From contig CM082596.2 of assembly GCA_040954595.2 (NCBI GenBank), positions 3,279,025 through 3,343,024 on the forward strand: DNA of 64,000 nucleotides. The letters run 5' to 3'. A program made the position numbers and the translations under genes. This DNA is from Balanoglossus misakiensis. Its lineage: Eukaryota; Animalia; Hemichordata. The notes under the pieces are model-generated. The model was not told the DNA's origin, did no database searches, and saw only the letters and a list, made by a program, of their open reading frames with translations. Shown here one piece after another: positions 1-15,950 of the stretch; positions within the stretch are counted from its first letter, which is position 1, and the number at the start of each line of letters is the position of its first letter.

Positions 1-155
1 AAGTTGGATTTTAGGATCCTCCTGTGTATGTATAATATAAACCGTATAATACAATATAGGGGTAACAACCATGCTTAAGCTTGTTTATAAAATACAAGGC
101 TGTGATTTAAGTTGATTTAATTATACGGCGGTTGGTGTCGCCATCCTTTTACTTT

Positions 156-1271
156 TTAGTTGCAAGCAGCTTCTGTTTTGTCAGTTTCGACTGAGGACGC
201 CCCTTTATTCATGTATACTTTTCCTGCATGAAGGATAACTTCGAGTATAGACAGAGCATTCTGCCTGCGATCGGGGTCCATGCCTGTAAAATCGTTGCGT
301 TCTTGGTCAAGGTTGGATATGGTGAAAATGTTGGCGCGAGTCACTGTAGTTGCTGCCGTAATGGCCTGGATTTTTTCCTCTATCTCGTCTTCTGTGCCTT
401 CTGCTTGATCGATATGTGTGACGACAACAAAGACCTTTAAACCACTTTCTGCAAGAAAACGTTAAACGTTATGGAAAAAAGTAACCGAAATTCACAGAGT
501 GTGGAATATGTAGACGTGTAAATCTAGGAGTATTAGTTTAAAACATTGACGTTTTTTAAAGTTTTAATTTTTGTCTGCTACGGCGTAACTTGAAAAAGAA
601 GACTTACTTAATTTGTATACTTCACCCATGAGTGGATCTATCATGCTGTCAACTTCTGCTGCCCACTTATGGATGAAAACTATTGCCGATGGTTTCTTAA
701 AGCCACTTCTCAGCTTGAATGCAGACTCTTCACCGACAGGGCTCCTATTGGCAGGCAATCTTCCGTTCAGTATTCTCCGAATTGCTCTCCTGGTTCTCTC
801 ATCTGGATCGTTTCCTGGGGTTGTGATCGTTTGTTTACACGAACCGGGAACATCACTCAGCCAGAACGGTTTATTATCTACAGTGACTTCGTATGGTTTG
901 TAAACAGCTGAACCAACACCACCTTGCATATATGCTTGGGCTGGCCCCTGGATGCCAGTTACAGCCTAAAAATGCAAAGATGTATGGTGTAAAAACTTGT
1001 GGCAATCAAATAAGCTGAACAAAAGAGAACAAACAAACAAACAGACGTACGTACATACATACATACATACATACATACATACATACATACATACATACAT
1101 ACATACATACATACATACATACATACATACATACATACATACATACATACATACATACATACATACATACATACATACATACATACCTACATACATACAT
1201 ACATACATACATACATACATACATACATACATACATACATACATACATACATACATACATACATACATACA

Positions 1272-1302
<31 letters not shown>

Positions 1303-3933
1303 CCGAATTGTTTGTCCAATGTAGGCCTTATTCATACAAAAAAAAAGTGAATTCTAAATTACTCTATACAATGAATTGATTGTTGATGATTTCCCTGTTC
1401 CAGGGGCACCGAAGAAGACAGTATTCTGGCCACAAATGCAGTCCTTGATATCACCTGGAATTGAATCGGAGAAAATCATCTTGGGATATGGAAATGGTGT
1501 CGATATAAAAATGCCTCCATACATTCAAATATAACGACCGTCATCGATTCGGAATTCTATTTACTTGAATTGTTGGGATTTGCTTGTAATCCGAATGTAT
1601 TTTACAAGTTGTAGATCAACGTGAAGGTTCAGGAAATATAACTTACTAATGGAAGTGGTTTTCCGAACTTTCTCGATCTCGAAAACAAACTTTTGGAGGC
1701 CGATATCTTCAATCGCTTTTGTAGAATCCAGATGGACGCTCTTTCCAGTAACTTTTGGGTATTCGTAAATTCTCATCTGACCTCCGTTTTTTATTTCATT
1801 CTGAAGGGATTTCATGTGATCCTCCGAAAAACGGAAGTCTGGCAGCCTTTTCAATATGTTTTTGGTCATTCCAAATACCGTCTCGTTTTTTCGGCATAGC
1901 ATGGCGATGTTATTGTCACCGTGGATAATTTGCACTTGAAGTAAATCTGCAAAAGAAGAATAGGTTCGAAGGAATGGAAATAATGTGGCGTTTTACATGA
2001 AATAACGCCAGTGATATTTTTATCAAACGTCATGATATTCACGTTAAACGTCATCAGTTTCTGCTGGGTCCTAGCCATAGCAATAAACGAAGCATGCCTG
2101 TATGCTACTTGTTGCATGCTTGGACCTGGCCTCGGACGGAACCTAGCTAAGAAATGATGAACAGGAAATTTAGGTAAAATGCTAACACATCATATTTTAG
2201 GTACTGATGGTTATTAAGGTTTAAGTTATTTATTTATTTATTTTGACTGACCTCAAGTGGGGTCATTTAATAGAAAACATCTCCGCGTGACGGGGGCGAT
2301 ACTGATCGCGGACCCACCCACTGAGGGAAACTTCGCGACACGGAGGTTGTCGCGCAGTTCATAATAGTTTCAAAAATGGGCCCAACTCTTCCCAATGTCA
2401 CAAAACAAAACATTTTGGGGTCAGTTTCGATTTAACTTCTTTTAAACGTCCATACTTCAGCAAAATTTACGAATAAATTATAAAAATGCATCCGTGTTGT
2501 CGACTTGCACTTAATATCGACCGTCCCGTTCCGAAGTGCAAAATACGAACAATTTCCATAATCAAAATTAAAGGTGTTTTTTGGATGTGCGAGACGGAGC
2601 AGACGGGCAGGGGATACTTTGTGCGACGTGTGTGCAACCATTTCCGCATATAGACAGTTAAAACCCTCACCATATCCCATTATCCGCGTCATGTGTACAA
2701 ATTGATGATCGCGTATCTAACGTCAACATCATAAACATTAGGTGCAATGATTGTAACGGGTGCTGCTAGGTTGAGTGCGAACACACCACTCAATCATTGC
2801 AGCTACATGAACATGGTCAAGTTGTTTACCAGGGCAATAAAATACCACGGTCACTACACAAGAAAATCCGTTTAATACAGGACATAAAATGTATTGCTAG
2901 AGTTCAATTATGCAAACGTTAGAGAGATATTGTAACAATTAAGTTATCACCCCGCACCCGAATCGATATCACCCCTTTGCTCTTCGTTGAGTGTATAGTC
3001 TGGTAGACGAATTTCCAAACTTTGATATTTTTCCTCACAAGGAAAATTTTTCACGGCGTACGCGAAAGTAGTAACCTCGCGTCTTTTTGCTAAAACCATT
3101 CGCAGAAACCTCGTGACAACAAATGGTTGTCGCATATCATAGCGTTGTTTTCATCGGCGCGTACCAATGACAGTGGTGCAAGAAATAGGCATAATTTCTC
3201 CAGAGTGTAGCAGCTGTTATGCGACCACAACCACACTTGTTGCAATATCTCATATTGTTTTTCTGTCTCTCATGTGGTACATGTAATTTATTAATATAGT
3301 CACATATGCTTTATTTGTGGTAGAATTGTCTTTTCAGAGTGTCAGATATCATGTCATCAGAGCCCTCTGAACTTCATAGCCCCAATGAATTCAGAATTAT
3401 TGGGATCTCAGATTCCTGGTCTTGAAACCCTTAATTTTTCTGAGATAACATGCATATACATGGATATTTACATGGATTTCAATTGAATGCATGGAGGCAT
3501 GATCGAGTAATTTGGAAACTATGACTTGTGCTGAAACAAGATAATTGCAACAAGCAAAACTTCAAAGTGGCCTATAATGGGCAATACAGGGCTGCAGCAA
3601 CAATGGCAAATACATGTACTCACCAATATCGAATTCCAATGAGAATTTTTTTATCTCTTCCAGCGGAGTACGAGGATGAATTACTTCCTTTCTCGTACCA
3701 TCATCCTGGACAGAATATATCGTGACATCGCCTGGACTGAGAGATGCATCGTCATGTAACTTTATCTTGAAATCTTCGGCCTTGTTTATTATCAATTCCG
3801 CTAGATTGTGTGTAACATCATTAAGAAGACAATTGACTTGGATTGGATTCTTCGGTCCGTATTTATAACGTAGATACAGAGGTAAGCTTGGTGCTGCTAA
3901 TTGTGGTAATTCTTGTTGAACGTTGTCAGCCAT
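156..3933 (-). CDS. IFI44/IFI44L-like P-loop GTPase with two N-terminal tandem repeats (possibly ubiquitin-like), ~450 aa, 5 coding exons
   Basis: Minus-strand exons 3933-3624, 1946-1647, 1454-1363, 965-608 and 448-156 join through GT-AG introns with matching phases (1,1,0,1); 1353 nt ending in TAA. Motifs: G1 FFGAPGTGKSSTINSL, G3 FWLSDVPG, RRILNGRLP, G4-like VFVVVTHID, IFTISN, and C-terminal helix ALSILEVILHAG. These parallel IFI44L as recalled (GPVGSGKSSFFNS, FMLCDTMG, HILKGCMP, VALLTKVD). The three 3' exons are firm; the link to the 3933-3624 exon is inferred from phase and from its similarity to exon 2. Confidence 0.75.
1052..1301. repeat. (ACAT)n tetranucleotide microsatellite, ~62 units
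   Basis: Near-perfect ACAT run with one ACCT interruption near 1188, preceded by a short (AAAC)n. It lies in intron 3 of the IFI44-like gene. Confidence 0.99.
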
Positions 3934-4895
3934 GTTAAGAAAATCAAAGCAGTGTGTCGGTACGACTTTGTCGAGGCACTTGTATAAACCTTTGAGCTGT
4001 GTGCAACTCTCAAATACTGAAGGAGTAAGGGGTAGTGATTTATAATGGGTGAAAGTTGTCTTATTTGGCTTGTGATTACTAAAACTCAAACCATTGTAGT
4101 AGTTTATGACCGATATAATTCTCCCAGGTAACAAATCTTTTGCCAAATACCTCACCTGTCCTCTGCCACTGTAGCTGTGTGGGAGTATTTGAATTACAGG
4201 ACATTCCTTTAGAGCTATTTGATTTCGGAGTGAAATAAAGCCTCTTGACATTCCTTATGCCAAATAAAATAATCCATCACATAATCAGACGACAGTTTAT
4301 ATCTTGTGGGCGTATTTTAGGCCTGGCAAACAATCAAATGTTTCTGACAAAAAGATAAGTAAACAAAGGCATGTTTTTTATAAAAAAGAAAAGTATCAAA
4401 TGGTTATCAAATGTTGAACATTTAAAAAGGTAATAAATCATGCAATCAGATGTAACTCAAACACATCCACCCCTACCAAACATAAATACATTTGTACGTA
4501 CCTCGAACTCATCAGAAGTGGAGTGCAAGTATGACGTTCTTTGATGAATGGGAAATCTAATGGTAGGTGATGATATATTTTAAAAGAGCTGTCATCACCA
4601 CCAGTTTTTGGTGGCTTTAACAACCATCAGCTACGCAGGGCAAGTCATACTTTTTCAAGTAAATTTTCCTGAACCTGCACTTTTCATACCCTAAAAACAA
4701 ACAAAACTTCTGGTACTGGAAATATTGATTTAAAAGGAGTAAAATTAAAAGGCTGAGCTTTCAACAATGAGTCTTTGGTTTTATACAAACAGAATATTCT
4801 CTTATTATTGTAGTGTAATACCTACTTAAATACATAATAATAATAATAAGCTTGATTAACACTACAGTACGTGAGTGAAGTGCAAAGTAGACACA

Positions 4896-5953: not shown

Positions 5954-8900
5954 TTACTTGTGTCTGTGGATGTAACTTGGCTGTCCATCCACTACTTTCA
6001 TCCAGTCATCATTGTCACGGGTGAGGGGAGTTTCGGGTCCTAGGAATGCTATGCCATTGGCCAGGTGGTCTGGTAGTAAATACCTACAAACAACACAAAA
6101 TGAGACTGGAAGCATTAAGAAAATTGGCTTTTTGTTGTAAATCACAAAACACAAAACCAGCACACTTTGTTTTCAATTTGCTTCTGGCTAAGTAGTGTAA
6201 CACTTACTTTTCTGCCACCTGTACCAAATCCTCTTTGGTAACAGCAAACAGTTGCTGACGGTGTGCTTGTTTCATGTCATCAGAAATGCCGCTCAGAAAT
6301 AGTGTGATTCCTCTGTTTGGGGGCGCTATAGGATAGTCGACCTGGGGAAAAAGAAAAGGATGTGACATTATATTTTCAGTATATGATTTTCACAATTTTC
6401 ATAACAGTAATATTGAGCAGGGTATAATAATATACTAGATACTCACAGTTTGAAAGACAGAGAGTTTAGCTTCATCGATGTCTTGATCCGAGAACTTGCC
6501 CTGACTGGCCCAGTCTATTGCACCGTCAAATGCCTCCATTGTTTCAAGGTTGTTTGGGTCCCTGGAGAAAATATGCGAGTTATGAACTTGTCTGGCCGAG
6601 ATAGATGGTCTATTGATGCCTGTGCATTGCAGTTACTCCTAAATCTGTATAATATGCTGATATAAATTTATTTGTAAAAACACAAATCAAATGCATTTTC
6701 AAAGTACCTGTAGGAATAGAATGAAAATATTCCGGATGTTCCCATTGATGCTCCTCCGCCATAAGCACCTCCCTTCTCCCTGGAAAAAAACAAACATTAC
6801 AATGTTCACCAGTAGTATTTTTAGGGTGGCCATTTTTATAACTCAAGTGATTCATAGATACAGAACTCACCTAATTTCTCTGTGTAGAAACTTGCTTGTC
6901 ATCAGTTTACCAAGAACTCGTAACCTGCATTAGGAAGAAGGGGGAGTGTTGATTTGCGATATGAGTTTAATTTTGAATCAGTACAGATAAACTAGACTGA
7001 GTCCGCATAAGCTGACTTGGTGTATGGTTGCCTCTACGGCCGCTAATCAACCCATGGAAATGTGACTTACTTTGCACAATCTGGATGAGTGTATGGCACT
7101 GTTGGTACACATCGTCCGACGTAATTCACTGGGAATGGCAGTGGGAAATGAATCCTCCTAGGTACTGGCTTGAAATTGAACACCTGAGACAGGAGAGATC
7201 AAAAAGTATTGATAAGCATGTATATGTATGTCATCTGCCCAAAGCACAAGCTGATAGCATTATGATCAATTTACATCACAAACCAAGGAGAAAATGAGCA
7301 TCAAAAATAATTGTTTTACATTTTTTGTCCCTTGACTGTATCTGTCTATATCAGCTGTATGTCCCTTGTCTAAATCTGTCCGTAATTGGCCATATGTCTT
7401 ACCTCAATCATTTTGACATGACTACCGGGAGCAGGCTTAGGTGGTGGCGCCACAGTCTTGATAAACTTCTCGAGTGTTTTAACAGCCGAGTCTATGTTCT
7501 CAGGTGTTGTATTCAATGCACATCTGATGAGACAATGTACATGGAGACTCATGAAACAAAAATGTCAGCAAACTTTCATGTACTACTAGTTTATCCATAT
7601 GATTAGAGACATGCCTACCTAAGGTGCTTCCTGTTAAACAGAATCTGCGAAATCATCTTCAAATTGTGAATGACTGGGTCCAAATCCTTCATTTCAGCAA
7701 TCTTCTTCATAATGGCTACCTGTAAAACAAACATAACAACAGCAGTGTTTGTATACTTCAGCGTCAAGGGGTCTAATTTCCATGGTGAAACATGAAATCA
7801 GGCATTTCAAATATTTCAGTTGTTCATACCTGCGTCATTCCACTAAACAGTTCCTTGATTTTTCCCAGTGGTGTCAGGGAGCTCCCGGCACACAACATGG
7901 CATAATGATGGCCATGGTGGGGTATGGAGTTGGCCAAATCGGCTGCTTCCATCTGGATCAGAGTTGTCAGGGTGTTTGTGTCATCAAAGCTTGCTCTGTT
8001 GAGAAATCAAACCAAAATTTAGCACCATCTAATATCATAACATATCACATTGTATCATACAGTATTGTACCATACCTTCTGTAAATTGTCTTTGAAGTAA
8101 GACCTTAGTAGAGTGAGGTACCTTCAACATTATCAGTAGTCATCGCGAATGAAACAAGTTAACATATACTCTTTTTAATTTACTGGCAGATGGAGCAAGT
8201 AACAGTCACAGCGCTGACCAACTGGTCGATGCTTTAGCGCACAAGATACATGTTTTACTGCATCATAGCTTTATTTGCGTACCTGTGAAAAACTTCTGTC
8301 CACAGATCAAACATATCTTGCAGATTGTGATCTAGACAGAATGAGGAGATTACCACACCCTGAAATAAAATGTCAAAATGTTGATGATCTATACAATGAT
8401 TTCAGAAGCAAAGTTTCCCACATGAAAGTACTGATTCTGATTAACAGTAAAGGAAACAAGGGCAGGTGTTTCTGTACTTGGTTTGAGTGGAACAATATTC
8501 CTTTCTCCTAGACATAACTGACCTGCTGTTTAAGAGTTTTAAAACATCGCTAGTTGAGACACAAACCTGTTCATGACCATTGATGTTACTGTGATGTAAT
8601 ACAGTGTGCGGTGTAACACTTAGACCTCCAGTTTTCAATTCTTCTCTCTGGGCAAATTCATGGTGATTCATCACTCCAGCACCAAGTCTGTGAGACAAGA
8701 CACAACAATGTTACTGGTGAATTGCAAGTATGGTTAATTACCATGTGATTCAGTTGACAGGCCTGTCTGATTTTGATTTGTTTGATGCAGGCAAATGTGA
8801 GAGACGGACACACACATCACTGTGGCCAGAACTTACTTTGTTATCACACTGCAAAACAATGGCACATATGTCATGAGTTCCTCTGGAAGTCTTTTCAGAT

Positions 8901-11900
8901 TGGCCACAGCTCTGAAATATGTGACTCCATTTGTTGGCTGCTCACACAACTGGATGGGTACGTACTCTGAAAAGAAGCCAAACACTTCAGAAAGGAGTCG
9001 CTGGATTGTCATCAGATGACATATTTTAACCATTTCATCCCTGTTTCCTTTTATGGAAGTCCAACTTTACCATAGAAAACAATAGATTTGGACCAAACCA
9101 TGGTGGTGAAAGGGTTAATGAAAACCACAAAACACAAAAATGATATCTGGACAATCTATAACTCACCTATAATTGCCTTTTTAATAGCTGTCCTTTTCAA
9201 GTCTGGATTGATGTCACTAATCTTCAGTGTTGGTAAACAGGACAAGTCTTCCTGTGCATTCTGTACTTTAGCAAGCCTAAGACCTAAAGCAGAAAAGAGT
9301 AACACAATTCTATTATTTTACAATCCTAGAAAATAGGATTCAAAGTTCACAACTGTTAGTGTCTCGTCACAGAAAAGCATGCATTTTTACATGTGACTTC
9401 CTCTGAAAAAGACACCAGTACTTCAAGTTCAACTGACCATGACTGTACACTTCTGCTCTGTCTTTTTCACTCAAAGCGTCCAACTTCTCTTGCAACAACT
9501 GTTTTTCCTCTTCCGCTTTGTTCTTCTCATAGTCCGGATCAGGACTCATTGTAAGCGTCAGTTTGTGGGGATTGTTCTTGAAGTAGGTCTCCATTTTCTC
9601 TTGCAAGAACCTGGGGTTCTCTGCCATGGCGTTCTTGAACTGCTCCACACACTTGTTGACTTGCAAGTTGGCGATGGGATCCCCTCCATGGTTCCAGCTT
9701 GGCATCAAAGACTGCAGATATATGACATTATATAACATGGCTGCCGTTATTGCAGTGAAAACTTCGTACTGCTCAATTTAACAAACTATTAAGGTACTCA
9801 TTAGTATGATAAATACAGTTGTTGTCGCTAGCGACAGATGCTTGTACTTACACCGATGAGTCCAAGACCAAACTGTGTTGTTTGATGTTTTATGGACAGT
9901 TCTATCTTGTGAAGCACAGCATCTATCCTCTCTTCAGGAAACCCCGTTCTAGAAAATGAAAATATAAATTTGACCCCAAGAGCAACATTATCCAAATCAT
10001 TAACACCCCAACCACCTCTGTTGTCATCATCATTATCATCGTCGCCGTCATCATCATTTTCACCCAGTCAGTTTCACAGTTCTCTGACAATACTTACTGG
10101 ATTACACTGTCTATTGTATCTTCAATGATCTTCTTCACAGTTTCGACATCACTTTCGCCGATATCCTTCAGTCCGACCGAGAAAACTGCCTCCTTAATTG
10201 AGCCATTATAACTAGCACCAAAGAGATAACAAATGTGAAGTTTGTATTTTGGTGTCATTTATACAATACTGTCAATTGTTTGTACTTTTTTCAACTCTTC
10301 ACCTACATAATGATTAATCTTACTGAAATTTCTGAGTCAATTATTGTCAAACATACGAAGAGAGTGTTGAAAGGATTATTTCCAATACTGAAGTATCTCT
10401 ACTTACCCGACAACAGGAGCATAATCCGATCCAATATTGGCATCCAACAATGCCTGATAAAATGGAGATGTTGGTCCAGCAGTCAACAGTGATCCAATGA
10501 TAGATGCCGTGAATGATTCAAAGGTGTCTGTGATGCTACAAATATAGAGAAATAATGTCAGTTTCAGCAAAAGCAGTGAGAGATTCTTCGATAGTGTTTG
10601 GACAGTCTGATTTAATGCCAGCCAACTAGCAACTATCTAGTGGCTGACCAATGTGGGACAAGCTACTGTACCAAAAACACAACCACTTACTCATTGAGAA
10701 GATAAGAAACAGACAGTGTCATCTGTTTCTTTGGATCGACTGCCATGGGATCCACTGCACAAGACACATGGTCTTCCCTCTGAAAATACAGAAATTAGAA
10801 TTGTTATTTCACTCCAAGACTGTTCTTTGTGGCTTCCCAATTTTTGTTTGACAGATGTTTAAAATATTAAACACTGTTTGTATTGCATGCGTGTTCATTC
10901 TACTTACAGGTTCTGTCCATCTTTCCTCTTTTGGTACCTCAGTATCAGGCTCAATTTTTGAAAACTTGCTCAGTGCGTTTTTTTGGATAAATTCTAAATG
11001 GTTCTCCATTGGCATGTCTCCATAGGTATAAAATCTGAGTGAAAAAAATAGCAACATAAAGTTGGTCATGATCATTACAGAGTGGTTAAAAAAAGTTAAT
11101 ATCTGATAACTGGTTGCATGAGATGCATTTACCTGGCATTACTAGGGTGGTAATGTGTTGCATGGAACTTCCGGAGTTGTTGCACAGTCAGTTCTGGAAT
11201 TTTCAAAGGATCCCCACCGGAATTCGTAGCATAGGTGTGGCTGGGAAGTATTTTGTTCTGTACGTGAATTCCAAACATATCATCCGGACTTGTCTGGAAA
11301 AAGGGGAAATAGAACATTTGAACTTCTCAGTACCATCGATACACAATCTGTTCATTATTAAAGATATCTGCGTAATGACAGCAATGAATTTGGGAAATGA
11401 TACAATTACTGATGTGCCCTAACTTAATCAAACTTAATTTCAACTTACCAGAGCCCCTTTCATTTCATTGAAAACAACACCTTTGAAAATGATTGGAGAG
11501 TTGGTATTATTGATATCTTCATGTTCTAGCCTCCATCCTTCTTGGCTGTTAAAATATAAAGGTTCAATCAATCAAGCAACCAATCAATCTAACAGTCAGT
11601 CAGTCAATCAATCAATCAAGTCAGTCAATCAATCAAGAATTCCACCACTGGTATTAAACTTATTATTAGCTGAGCACAACACAACTTACCTGAAGTCATA
11701 TTCTTGGAGTTTTGGAAAGAAGACAGCATCCAGGTACACTGACAGTAAATTCTCAAAGTCTTTATCATTCTGGCTCGAAAATGGATAAATGGTGTAGTCA
11801 CTTGCTGTGGACAAATCAGATGACATTTTCAATTCACTTTGGAATACTCACATACAAGTGAGCACCAGATCATAAATTGGCATAGCATTACCTGTCATGG

Positions 11901-13430: not shown

Positions 13431-14040
13431 GTACGTTGGCATGTAGAAATAGGTGTTAATGTTTTTAGCAGATAGCAATTAGCATAACAACAAACGGTGG
13501 ATGTTTATCACAGCTGTTTCAGCTATGTGTACACCGGTGCAAAACAGTTATTCTGGAGCGGGGATGTGTGTTATGGCAGCTTGATTAGACTGATATTTTG
13601 CATCCCCAGCTCAGATTACCGAAATGGAATCTTGATTAAGAGACTGTCATTTGCGAAAATGGGGGGTGTCTGTTTCCCTTGGGTTTGTTTACTTTTCTGT
13701 GACGCATTTCTCATCCACCCAAGTCCCAACCCCGCCCCCATCACCTAGGAAACTCATGAACTACATCCAGTAGTGATGTGATGGCAATGTGTCTTCAGAC
13801 ACATTGTACCTCCACCATAGATTGGTGCTTATAAATTGATGTCACTGACCTACTCAACATTATTACAAAATACCCAATAATAAAGTTTCTGTGCCGTTTA
13901 GCGGGTCTTCTCCCAGAATGCAACGCTAGAGATCTTTTGATTTGGGGATCTTGTACCTTCCTACCCCATATAATCAATGCAAAGTCCTGCATCTCTACTT
14001 TCAGGGGTATGGTTGTGTTGTCTGGAACAGGGTCGGTAAG

Positions 14041-15950
14041 ATGTGGTATGTGATGGCAAGGCTGCAGCAAAGCTACAGTCTGCAGGAGCGCCTGGTTCGC
14101 ACCATTGCCGACTGGCGGGCGTACTCCACAGACGATGTGGAGGAGCTGTTGGACGAAGGGGCGGATGTCAACGGCGCCTCGGGCACTCTGCTACCGTTGC
14201 ACTGTGCGTGCATGGTGAGCGACAGCAATGTTCTCAAGTTGCTGCTAGACAGGGGTGCTGCAGTAAGTATTGGTACCTAAGAATTTAAGGATAAGGCTTA
14301 AAGGGGAAGCTTACCCTCTGTTGTAATTGCACAAAGTTGTTTAATAGTCACGTGACAAATGCCAATTTCACTAACTTTCACTCGTGCACAGCAAAGTAAT
14401 TTATCACCAATGATAAAAGACAAGAAGTGACAGAATTGACTTGTGGGTCGTCTGCTGCAGGGGCAAGTACATGTACAGTCACGTTGCTGTGTCAAGTCAC
14501 ACACACACATGAACTATGACATAACTATGGCAACAGATAATTTGGAGCCAGAGATCCCCCTCTAAAAACTGGAGATTGAAATAACACTGGACCGTACGCA
14601 AAGCGCAGTACTGCACGTCGACTGCAACACAAGTCGTGTACGTCACTTCTAGTTGCATTTTAAACACACACAGTGCACGACTGAGATCTAATCCATAGGA
14701 TATCTGACAATATAATGACAGGACTTTGGAAGGACTGTTGGTGAACTATGTAGTGACCTTCCATATTGATGCCAGGTCCCACCCAACATATACATGTACA
14801 TTAACCTCCTACTGCTTTGCATTCTGTTGTGTGACCTCCCTTTTGAGGGATTGCCTTGCGAGACAGAAAGAATCCTTTTTTTGTTTGCGGCTTGTAGTGT
14901 TCTGTTGTGTAGCTGTGAAAGTTCCAAGTGTAAAGCCAAAAATGGCAAAATGCATTTTTTTAAAATGCGAGAGGGATGACTATATGTATGTGTAATGAAA
15001 CTCGCCAACCCTGACTGTCAGTGAATAACAGAAAGAGTGTACTAACGGATAATGGAAAGAATGTACTAACACCAAGCTCTAGCGACAGCGCCCTCTAATG
15101 CCAATCGCGGAATCTATTGATCAGTTGTTTTTGTGTGCAGTGCAGTCTGTGTGTAATTCTATCTAATCTTAGGCAAATATAAGCTTCGGTAAAAGTTTAG
15201 TGAAGTTTAGAAAAAATCTAACTTGAAATTAATAAAATGTGGTGTGGACATAAGGTTTGATTTTTTGAAATTCAAGTTCAATCAAGTAAAACATGGAACT
15301 TTTTCAAACAGGTCAACGCTGTCGATGGCTATGAAAGAACTGCTTTGCATTATGCCGCGGAAAAAGATGACATTTGCACTGAGCTTCTCATACAACATGG
15401 TGCTGACCTGAACGCCCCCGACGGTAATCAGGACACTCCGCTGCACTGGGCTTCGTTTAAGAACAATGTGAACAGCGTCAAGATTCTGCTGCGCCACCAG
15501 GCCGCGGTCAACCTCGTGGACTACAACAACGACACGGCGCTCAGCTGGGCTGCGCTGAAATGCAACCAGGAGAGCATTCAGTTGTTGCTAGATTACGGGG
15601 CGGACCCGTCCATCACGAATTATAACGGGATGTCGCCTATTTTACGGGCGGCCATCATGGCGGCCTCCGGACTAGATAGCCGGGACGTGGAGTCTGTCCG
15701 GTTGCTCGTCAAAGCGCTTGGCATGTTTGACATACGCAACGAGCAGGGCTGCCTGCCCAATGAAATCAAGCGAGACGCGCACCTTCACGACATGCTCATA
15801 CAGTACTGCGAAAACGCCAGACCACTCAAGGAGCTGTGTCGCTTTGTTATACGTAGAAATCTCGGCCAGACTTATTTGCCTGAAGCTGTGACTAAACTGC
15901 CATTGCCTGCTGTGCTGCGGAGTTACCTACTGCTGCAAGAACAAAGATGA
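14041..15950 (+). CDS. ASB8: Ankyrin repeat and SOCS box protein 8, 286 aa, 2 coding exons
   Basis: Exons 14041-14262 and 15312-15950, joined by a phase-0 GTAAGT...ACAG intron. The N-terminus MWYVMARLQQSYSLQERLVRTIA matches the distinctive ASB8 start (MWYIMQSIQSKYSLSERLIRTIA, recalled). Ankyrin repeats PLHCAC, TALHYAA, DTPLHWAS and DTALSWAA precede a C-terminal SOCS box PLKELCRFVIRRNL...LPLPAVLRSYLL. Confidence 0.97.
15087..15104 (-). promoter_or_regulatory. CTCF-like binding motif
   Basis: The minus strand reads TTGGCATTAGAGGGCGCT, close to the CTCF consensus TGGCCASYAGRKGGCGCT. It lies in the ASB8 intron. Confidence 0.5.

What the first reader, a model, noticed from the sequence alone, without database searches (positions are those of the whole stretch)
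156..3933. IFI44-like GTPase with a tandem pair of ubiquitin-like-sized repeats in place of the usual TLDc domain
Seen: no single ORF shows this gene; the Walker A motif GAPGTGKS sits in a 92-nt exon (1454-1363) missing from the ORF track. The spliced product has G1 GAPGTGKS, G3 DVPG and G4-like THID. Established: vertebrate IFI44/IFI44L are interferon-stimulated antiviral proteins with an N-terminal TLDc domain and this P-loop domain, and the family is expanded in invertebrates. Di-ubiquitin-like modules occur in the antiviral proteins ISG15 and OASL. Inference: a two-repeat, beta-grasp-like N-terminus fused to an IFI44-type GTPase is an architecture I do not know from the literature, and it may be an undescribed invertebrate innate-immune effector. 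This is the best candidate for a new system in the window.
Basis: partly seen in the sequence, partly recalled or inferred. Interest (0 to 1): 0.8.

Follow-up and report, generated by a model that had tools for sequence, protein, structure and literature searches.

The report
Ubiquitin-headed IFI44-type GTPase of acorn worms
This five-exon animal gene, matched end to end by gene models from two acorn worms, is predicted to make a GTPase of the immune-related IFI44 type whose usual front domain is replaced by two ubiquitin-shaped domains that likely act as a docking handle; an immune role is likely but untested.

Summary
Five minus-strand exons with GT-AG introns give an open 450-residue frame. 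It aligns without gaps at all four junctions to a Ptychodera flava model (38% identity, E 9e-95). Ten relatives were found, all 'uncharacterized' proteins of two acorn worms, with one to three N-terminal repeats before the GTPase.

The repeats are homologous (HHalign 98.8%). In the closest relative they model confidently (pLDDT 90) as two beta-grasp domains, not TLDc. That relative's GTPase domain is nearest to IFI44/IFI44L in the ESM Atlas (TM 0.85-0.86); no direct IFI44 alignment was possible. The repeats lack a terminal Gly-Gly, so they are not ISG15-like conjugatable tags. Exon 2 is a symmetric phase-1 cassette, and repeat number varies across the family.

Best reading: a lineage-restricted IFI44-type GTPase with a swapped, ubiquitin-fold docking header. 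Immune function, partner and expression are untested; no RNA run was listed. IFI44-type GTPases already occur with TLDc, Ig or no front domain, so this is a new variant, not a new system. The scan had no look-alike on other DNA, but noted another IFI44-type fusion (to a Tec kinase) in this genome.

The parts
3624..3933 (-). Exon 1 (coding part): ATG, about 15-residue leader and beta-grasp repeat A (residues ~16-103); ends in phase 1
   Evidence: repeat profile built without window rows scores it E 8e-13
1647..1946 (-). Exon 2: beta-grasp repeat B (residues ~104-200); 300-nt symmetric phase 1-1 cassette, skipping it keeps the frame
   Evidence: E 3e-15 with the repeat profile
1363..1454 (-). 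Exon 3 (92 nt): start of the GTPase domain, G1/Walker A GAPGTGKS at 1410-1387
   Evidence: (19 of 31 residues identical to P0002)
608..965 (-). Exon 4: switch I (Ser at the family's G2 Thr position), G3 DVPG at 854-843, ILNGRLP segment
156..448 (-). Exon 5: G4-like THID at 419-408, G5-like ISNL, last helix, stop codon; no CaaX end
1029..1301 (.). (ACAT)68 microsatellite inside intron 3; source of spurious long ORFs, not coding
116..121 (-). ATTAAA, possible polyadenylation signal about 35 nt after the stop
   Evidence: motif match only

Best explanation
The locus is an intact five-exon gene, likely from an acorn worm, predicted to encode two tandem ubiquitin-fold domains followed by a likely IFI44-type GTPase, and the ubiquitin-fold pair likely serves as a non-conjugatable docking header that brings the GTPase to a protein target, probably in innate immunity. 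Shown: open spliced frame, G1/G3/G4 motifs, homologous repeats, no terminal Gly-Gly, a family with 1-3 repeats in two acorn-worm species. Predicted on the closest relative: beta-grasp fold of both repeats and IFI44-type GTPase fold. Inferred: the header replaced TLDc by exon shuffling at phase-1 introns and was later extended by cassette duplication. Also inferred: GTP binding works as the switch, with hydrolysis needing self-association or a partner because no catalytic Gln follows DxxG (0 of 11 sequences). The immune role is inferred only from family behaviour. Rough odds by step: real gene 0.95, folds 0.95, IFI44-type 0.88, external-partner docking header 0.65, immune role 0.55-0.6.
For: Gene model. 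Family: 10 of the 12 hits are real homologues, named only 'uncharacterized protein' from Ptychodera flava (6) and Glandiceps talaboti (4). Repeat fold: AlphaFold2 on an 11-row alignment, pLDDT 89.8, pTM 0.76. All 43 Foldseek PDB rows listed contain ubiquitin-fold chains (linear di-ubiquitin, talin F0F1, chicken OASL di-Ubl, ISG15, USP7 Ubls; best E 4e-8). VIA-align Z 8.1-10.0 for both halves. Best PDB sequence-profile hit is polyubiquitin, E 0.021. GTPase type: Atlas feature scores 0.95-0.97; structure TM 0.85-0.86 over 217-221 residues to four clusters named IFI44 or IFI44-like among the top eight rows. Header swapping: those Atlas clusters carry TLD, I-set Ig or no common N-terminal family. 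Exon 2 is phase 1-1. Third repeats group with type A in one protein and type B in three. Conserved repeat columns are mostly hydrophobic and core-like, and most polar columns vary, as expected of a fold-constrained binding module. Immune context: 2 of 10 homologues end in a CaaX motif. Homologues appear clustered: 4 of 4 Glandiceps and 3 of 6 Ptychodera proteins share a contig length. IFI44 homologues rise in cnidarian antiviral responses and are expanded in zebrafish and anchovy.
Against: No expression, induction or binding data exist for any member. Fold and family tests were run on P0002 (38% identical), not on the window's own spliced product; the window's exon 2 alone folded poorly (pLDDT 38.7) and gave only sub-0.9 Atlas leads. 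No IFI44-named sequence reached E 0.001 in the phmmer search (0 of 12 hits). The best named sequence-profile hits were EngB/YsxC (E 2e-7) and IRG GTPases (E 4e-4), so the IFI44 link is remote and rests on one Atlas call. Human IFI44 restricts RSV without its G1 region, so the GTP-switch step is unproven even in the known family. IFI44 can also dampen antiviral responses (title and abstract). The window gene has Ser for the G2 Thr and Thr for the G1 His seen in 9 of 10 homologues, and a branch twice as long as P0002's. It has no CaaX end and no paralogue in the window.
Confidence: 0.5

Rival explanations
1. The repeat pair is a poly-ubiquitin mimic in the manner of OASL: it occupies ubiquitin-binding sites of RIG-I-like receptors or other immune adaptors, or baits pathogen deubiquitinases, and so aims the GTPase.
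For: Top Foldseek rows are linear di-ubiquitin, chicken OASL di-Ubl and ISG15. The best single VIA-align row is Met1-linked di-ubiquitin, Z 10.0, rmsd 5.7, 136 aligned. Best profile hit is polyubiquitin. OASL's tandem Ubls are described as mimicking K63 chains (abstract of PMC6019448).
Against: Whole-pair TM-scores are only 0.30-0.45 with rmsd 6-15 A, so the two domains are arranged differently from those chains. Identity is 8-15%. Each repeat has an extra helical insert. By eye and with recalled ubiquitin numbering, the Leu8/Ile44/Val70 patch is not kept: the Leu8- and Val70-equivalent columns vary. No Gly-Gly lies at repeat ends.
Confidence: 0.15
2. The repeats work like Ras-association or talin F0 domains: they bind a GTP-loaded GTPase, either a host Ras/Rap protein or the protein's own GTPase domain, giving autoinhibition or head-to-tail assembly.
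For: The best single-domain VIA-align rows are RA domains (Grb10 Z 9.4, RalGDS 9.3, PLC-epsilon 9.2). Talin F0F1 is Foldseek rank 2. A basic residue ends strand 1 in 16 of 24 repeats.
Against: These Z-scores are tied within 1 unit with ubiquitin, UBX and other Ubl rows. The sequence pattern favours ubiquitin-like Ubls. Repeat net charge is mostly neutral or negative, +3 to -10. The Atlas model of whole P0002 has pTM 0.52, giving no sign of fixed packing between header and GTPase.
Confidence: 0.15
3. The protein has the same architecture but a non-immune job, for example in membrane traffic, stress or an acorn-worm-specific tissue; IFI44 ancestry does not fix function.
For: No expression data. 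This copy stands alone next to housekeeping-type genes (presequence-protease-like and ankyrin-SOCS-box). An apparent orthologue pair (window and P0002, repeat-B support 100/97) has been kept across a deep split.
Against: Fast divergence (28-42% identity among GTPase domains), variable repeat number and apparent clustering resemble immune GTPase families such as snail AIG/GIMAP.
Confidence: 0.17
4. The splice model is wrong or the gene is dead: the repeat exons and GTPase exons are separate, or the locus is an unexpressed relic.
For: No reads were available. The exact product was not retrieved from the protein collection. Supporting models are automated annotations. Two splice sites are weak.
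Against: An open frame over 450 codons with motifs intact at 62% divergence. Ten independent models in two species join the same domains in the same order, and no gap falls at any of the 4 junctions.
Confidence: 0.03

Closest known systems
IFI44 / IFI44L family (vertebrate interferon-stimulated genes; oyster CgIFI44L-1)
   Same: GTPase domain with G1, DxxG not followed by Gln, and G4 (passages of 10.1101/2020.02.24.963900); predicted fold TM 0.85-0.86 to IFI44-named clusters; multi-copy family.
   Different: No TLDc domain (human IFI44 has a putative one, PMC5614904; oyster IFI44L has TLDc plus MMR_HSR1, PMC11682996). One to three beta-grasp repeats stand there instead. Sequence similarity is too remote for a single-sequence search. 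Induction is unknown.
Fish 'IFI44-like' proteins with I-set Ig domains, and header-less IFI44-like proteins (ESM Atlas clusters, automatic names)
   Same: Same GTPase fold with TLDc replaced or absent, showing the header is interchangeable.
   Different: Ig or no header rather than ubiquitin folds; chordate rather than acorn-worm.
OASL tandem Ubls and ISG15
   Same: Two beta-grasp domains in tandem, on or as an antiviral protein.
   Different: Here N-terminal, with an extra insert, 8-15% identity, a different domain arrangement, no terminal Gly-Gly, and fused to a GTPase.
Crinkler/CR proteins with a Ubl header and GTPase C-terminus (Zhang et al. 2016, seen only through the review PMC5289972)
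   Same: An N-terminal Ubl header on an enzymatic conflict domain, GTPases among them; weak Pfam Crinkler matches in 2 of 11 rows, best E 0.0025 (below the curated cut-off).
   Different: These are mostly oomycete/fungal effectors. Whether their GTPase is IFI44-type could not be checked because the paper was not held.
Invertebrate AIG1/GIMAP expansions with shuffled headers (Biomphalaria, PMC7053062)
   Same: Expanded, clustered immune-type GTPases with variable added domains.
   Different: A different GTPase family; no ubiquitin or IFI44 mention in that paper's main text (0 occurrences).

Membership tests
IFI44/IFI44L family | P-loop GTPase motifs G1, G3 (DxxG without following Gln), G4 | tested here: met
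   GAPGTGKS, DVPG-S, THID in the window; 0 of 11 sequences have Gln after DxxG; motif description
IFI44/IFI44L family | GTPase domain closer to IFI44 than to other GTPase families | tested here: met
   On relative P0002 only: Atlas features 0.95 for an IFI44-like cluster against 0.88 for an AIG1-containing one; structure TM 0.85-0.86. One source, predicted models.
IFI44/IFI44L family | Direct alignment and phylogenetic placement within the IFI44 clade | not testable with these tools
   No IFI44 sequence was returned, so no alignment or tree with it could be made
IFI44/IFI44L family | N-terminal TLDc domain (canonical architecture) | tested here: not met
   No Pfam TLD match in 10 of 10 homologues at E 0.1 or 11 of 11 N-terminal rows at E 1; the region models as two beta-grasp domains
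IFI44/IFI44L family | Induction by interferon-like or viral stimuli | not testable with these tools
   No RNA run listed
Beta-grasp / ubiquitin-like fold | Beta-beta-alpha-beta-beta-beta topology with structural match to solved Ubls | tested here: met
   On P0002's pair: DSSP order; Foldseek E 4e-8; VIA Z 8-10 with rmsd 1.6-3 A per domain
Conjugatable ubiquitin-like modifiers (ISG15, FAT10, ubiquitin) | C-terminal Gly-Gly after the last strand | tested here: not met
   No Gly-Gly at the end of any of 24 repeats (alignment). The pattern scan found none before G1 in 10 homologues and one internal KNGG at residue 156 of the window protein
OASL-type poly-ubiquitin mimic | Binding to ubiquitin-binding immune receptors; ubiquitin-like surface patch | tested here: inconclusive
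   Fold match but whole-pair TM 0.30-0.45; surface columns vary; binding not testable
Ras-association (RA)/F0 domains | Binding to a GTP-loaded GTPase through strand 2 | not tested
   Fold rows tied with other Ubls; the complex prediction could not be queued
Crinkler CR-Ubl header | Pfam PF20147 above its cut-off | tested here: inconclusive
   2 of 11 rows match weakly, best E 0.0025; 18.3 bits against a cut-off of 24.6; window exons do not match

The most novel reading that the evidence does not exclude
Acorn worms evolved their own ubiquitin-mimic immune GTPases: exon-cassette arrays of one to three ubiquitin folds act as a variable bait or chain mimic that aims an IFI44-type, sometimes prenylated, GTPase at ubiquitin-coated pathogens or at pathogen deubiquitinases. 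This would join the OASL/ISG15 strategy and the GBP/IRG strategy in one polypeptide, and would show that the IFI44 GTPase is a portable effector whose target is set by its header.
Probability: 0.15. Interest if true: 0.75.

Novelty: new variant of a known kind. Interest (0 to 1): 0.42.

Why it matters
How IFI44 proteins work is still open: even the need for their GTP-binding site is disputed. A natural family that keeps the GTPase but swaps TLDc for ubiquitin folds, with one to three copies, allows a clean header-swap experiment separating what the GTPase does from what the header targets. It also names ten 'uncharacterized' acorn-worm proteins and adds a candidate to deuterostome invertebrate immunity. 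Its reach is limited: the family was seen only in acorn worms, header swapping is common in immune GTPases, and no function is shown.

Tried and rejected
RNA support: no RNA holder was listed for window 130-1000, so no reads could be laid; this is no evidence either way. No whole genome is held, so paralogues outside the window were not counted.

Word-seeded protein searches were unproductive. Exon 4 against longer proteins gave 0 of 169 candidates. The family profile gave 3 of 7994 and the repeat profile 3 of 7997, all already known; these do not show absence elsewhere. Two of the 12 hits (P0004, P0010) are long repetitive proteins that did not align to the spliced product and were dropped before all counts.

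Single-sequence folding of exon 2 failed (pLDDT 38.7). Exon 4 alone matched only antibody light chains at E 0.4-0.9 in the PDB. Viral contigs: 0 of 173 candidates. Metagenome contigs: 1 of 373, a remote GTPase without the repeats by eye. A hidden third repeat in intron 1 or a paralogue in the window: none among 2207 six-frame fragments. Diverged TLDc: rejected. ISG15-like conjugation: rejected. Fusion to the upstream presequence-protease-like gene: rejected, since it has its own stop at 5954, 2021 nt before the ATG.

A complex prediction of the repeats with the GTPase domain could not be run because the queue was full, so the self-docking rival is untested. A second VIA-align look was not run. 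Zhang et al. 2016 was not held; McDowell et al. 2016 was seen only as a citation.

Not in print as far as searched: searches listed no paper whose title or abstract start describes a ubiquitin-fold IFI44 or this acorn-worm family. The library lacks most subscription journals and supplements were not opened.
Full report
Observation. Exons 3-5 are richer in G+C (42-46%) than introns 2-4 (28-35%); exons 1-2 (39-40%) do not differ from intron 1 (40%). The ATG at 3933 has A at -3 and G at +4. The frame is also open upstream to an ATG at 4251, and a possible 5' intron would bring an ATG at 4204 into frame, but the homologues' short leaders fit 3933. G1 GAPGTGKS, G3 DVPG and G4-like THID are where stated. 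No RNA run was listed and no genome is held.

Relatives. A phmmer search of 1.84 billion representatives with exons 4-5, read through the in-frame intron with X at its stops, gave 12 hits. Two are unrelated repeat proteins. Ten are 'uncharacterized' RefSeq models from the acorn worms Ptychodera flava (6) and Glandiceps talaboti (4). The spliced product aligns to all ten (E 9e-95 to 7e-24), and to XP_070570359.1 over residues 17-440 at 37.6% with no gap at any junction. This is independent support for the splice model, though by annotation and not by reads, and it makes an acorn worm the likely source. The count is a lower bound (clusters at 50% identity), and absence from other phyla is only at this sensitivity.

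The header. From the window alone the two repeats are barely alike (33 of 2000 shuffles). With relatives, first and last repeats match at HHalign probability 98.8. Profiles built without the window rows score both window repeats above all 2000 shuffles in both directions. Members carry one (P0009), about one and a half (P0003), two (4 homologues and the window) or three (4 homologues) repeats. A tree separates type A (first) from type B (last) repeats with moderate support (93/93, not starred). The extra copy is A-type in one protein and B-type in three, which suggests more than one duplication. Exon 2 is flanked by phase-1 introns and can be skipped in frame, the classic geometry for exon duplication and shuffling (established knowledge); intron positions of the homologues were not available. 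AlphaFold2 on P0002's pair with 11 rows gave pLDDT 89.8. Foldseek returned ubiquitin-fold chains in all 43 listed PDB rows, led by linear di-ubiquitin, talin F0F1, chicken OASL and ISG15, with whole-pair TM only 0.30-0.45. VIA-align gave Z 8.1-10.0, with ubiquitin, RA, UBX and FERM-F0/F1 rows tied. So the fold class is clear and the subfamily is not. Pfam TLD never matched. No repeat ends in Gly-Gly. Conserved columns are mainly hydrophobic, with an Asp-Thr-Val-x-Asp-Leu helix start.

The GTPase. Pfam gives MMR_HSR1 in 10 of 10 homologues (9 above cut-off). PDB and NCBIfam profiles give EngB/YsxC and IRG as best named hits; no IFI44 entry appeared among the rows shown. The ESM Atlas, on P0002 residues 222-445, ranks IFI44-like clusters at 0.95 by features (AIG1-containing row 0.88). 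By structure it gives TM 0.85-0.86 to four IFI44-named clusters and to a TLD-bearing mollusc cluster. That is one source, on a proxy, using predicted models. The segments ILDG.LP, IHAIV, THID and ISN and the last helix also match my recollection of human IFI44; this is recalled and from no call. The same Atlas table shows this GTPase with TLD, with I-set Ig domains and with no common header. G motifs are conserved in all 11 sequences, none has Gln after DxxG, and 2 of 10 homologues end in CaaX. The window protein has Ser at G2, no CaaX, and a longer branch than P0002.

Mechanism. The most likely reading (0.5) is a cytosolic IFI44-type GTPase whose ubiquitin-fold pair is a non-covalent docking header, gained by exon shuffling and varied by duplication, serving innate immunity. 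The fold, motifs and family are shown or predicted; the docking role, GTP-driven assembly and immune role are inferred. Support for immunity is circumstantial: IFI44 homologues are induced in Nematostella and Stylophora antiviral responses (10.1101/2025.01.24.634691, passages) and expanded in zebrafish (10.1101/693333, passages) and anchovy (PMC13403563, passages). Against over-reading: G1 deletion did not abolish human IFI44's anti-RSV effect (10.1101/2020.02.24.963900, passages), and IFI44 is also reported to dampen antiviral responses via FKBP5 (PMC6712396, listing and passages). Rivals are an OASL-type chain mimic (0.15; PMC6019448, abstract only), an RA-like GTPase-binding or self-docking module (0.15; untested because the complex queue was full), a non-immune role (0.17) and a wrong model (0.03).

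Comparison and novelty. It works like an IFI44-family or other immunity-related GTPase with a swapped header. It meets the GTPase features of IFI44 but not the canonical TLDc architecture (PMC5614904 and PMC11682996, passages), so it is filed as an IFI44-type variant, not as IFI44. Ubl-header plus GTPase proteins are reported among Crinkler-type proteins (review PMC5289972, passages; the primary paper was not held). Header shuffling is documented for snail AIG GTPases (PMC7053062, passages). PMC9334734 only lists IFI44 (passages). Ten literature searches showed no description of this architecture in listings; subscription papers and supplements, notably McDowell 2016 and Zhang 2016, could bear on this and were not seen. 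Earlier scan notes had no sequence look-alike but record an IFI44-like GTPase fused to a Tec kinase in the same genome (unchecked), in line with a portable domain.

Verdict. A real gene and a real, apparently undescribed acorn-worm subfamily: new variant of a known kind, interest 0.42.

Noticed in passing
window 5954 to about 12000, minus strand: Multi-exon presequence-protease (PITRM1-like, Pfam M16C_assoc) gene; its stop at 5954 lies 2021 nt upstream of the finding's ATG on the same strand.
   Followed up: partly
window 13930-15950, plus strand: Ankyrin-repeat plus SOCS-box gene (ASB type).
   Followed up: partly
window 4155-4017, minus strand: Strong donor (CAG|GTGAGG) and acceptor upstream of the ATG suggest a 5' intron; if spliced, an ATG at 4204 would add 44 residues in frame, which the homologues do not support.
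   Followed up: partly
P0005 and P0009 (homologues), C-termini: Both end in a CaaX prenylation motif (CLVL, CTVI), P0009 after a basic stretch; the other 8 homologues and the window protein do not.
   Followed up: no
P0007 residues ~94-125: A hydrophobic, Trp-rich stretch lies between repeats 1 and 2 of this Ptychodera isoform; possibly a membrane-binding helix or an annotation artefact.
   Followed up: no
L001:2-1444: Intron-less open frame in a metagenome contig with a remote GTPase domain of similar motif layout and a hydrophobic C-terminal tail; no ubiquitin-like repeat evident by eye.
   Followed up: no
(predicted viral structures): Uncharacterised giant-virus proteins of 438-506 residues (Hyperionvirus, Harvfovirus, Edafosvirus) match the tandem ubiquitin-fold model over about 230 columns; their other domains were not examined.
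   Followed up: no
window 11564-11636: (TCAA)18 microsatellite.
   Followed up: no
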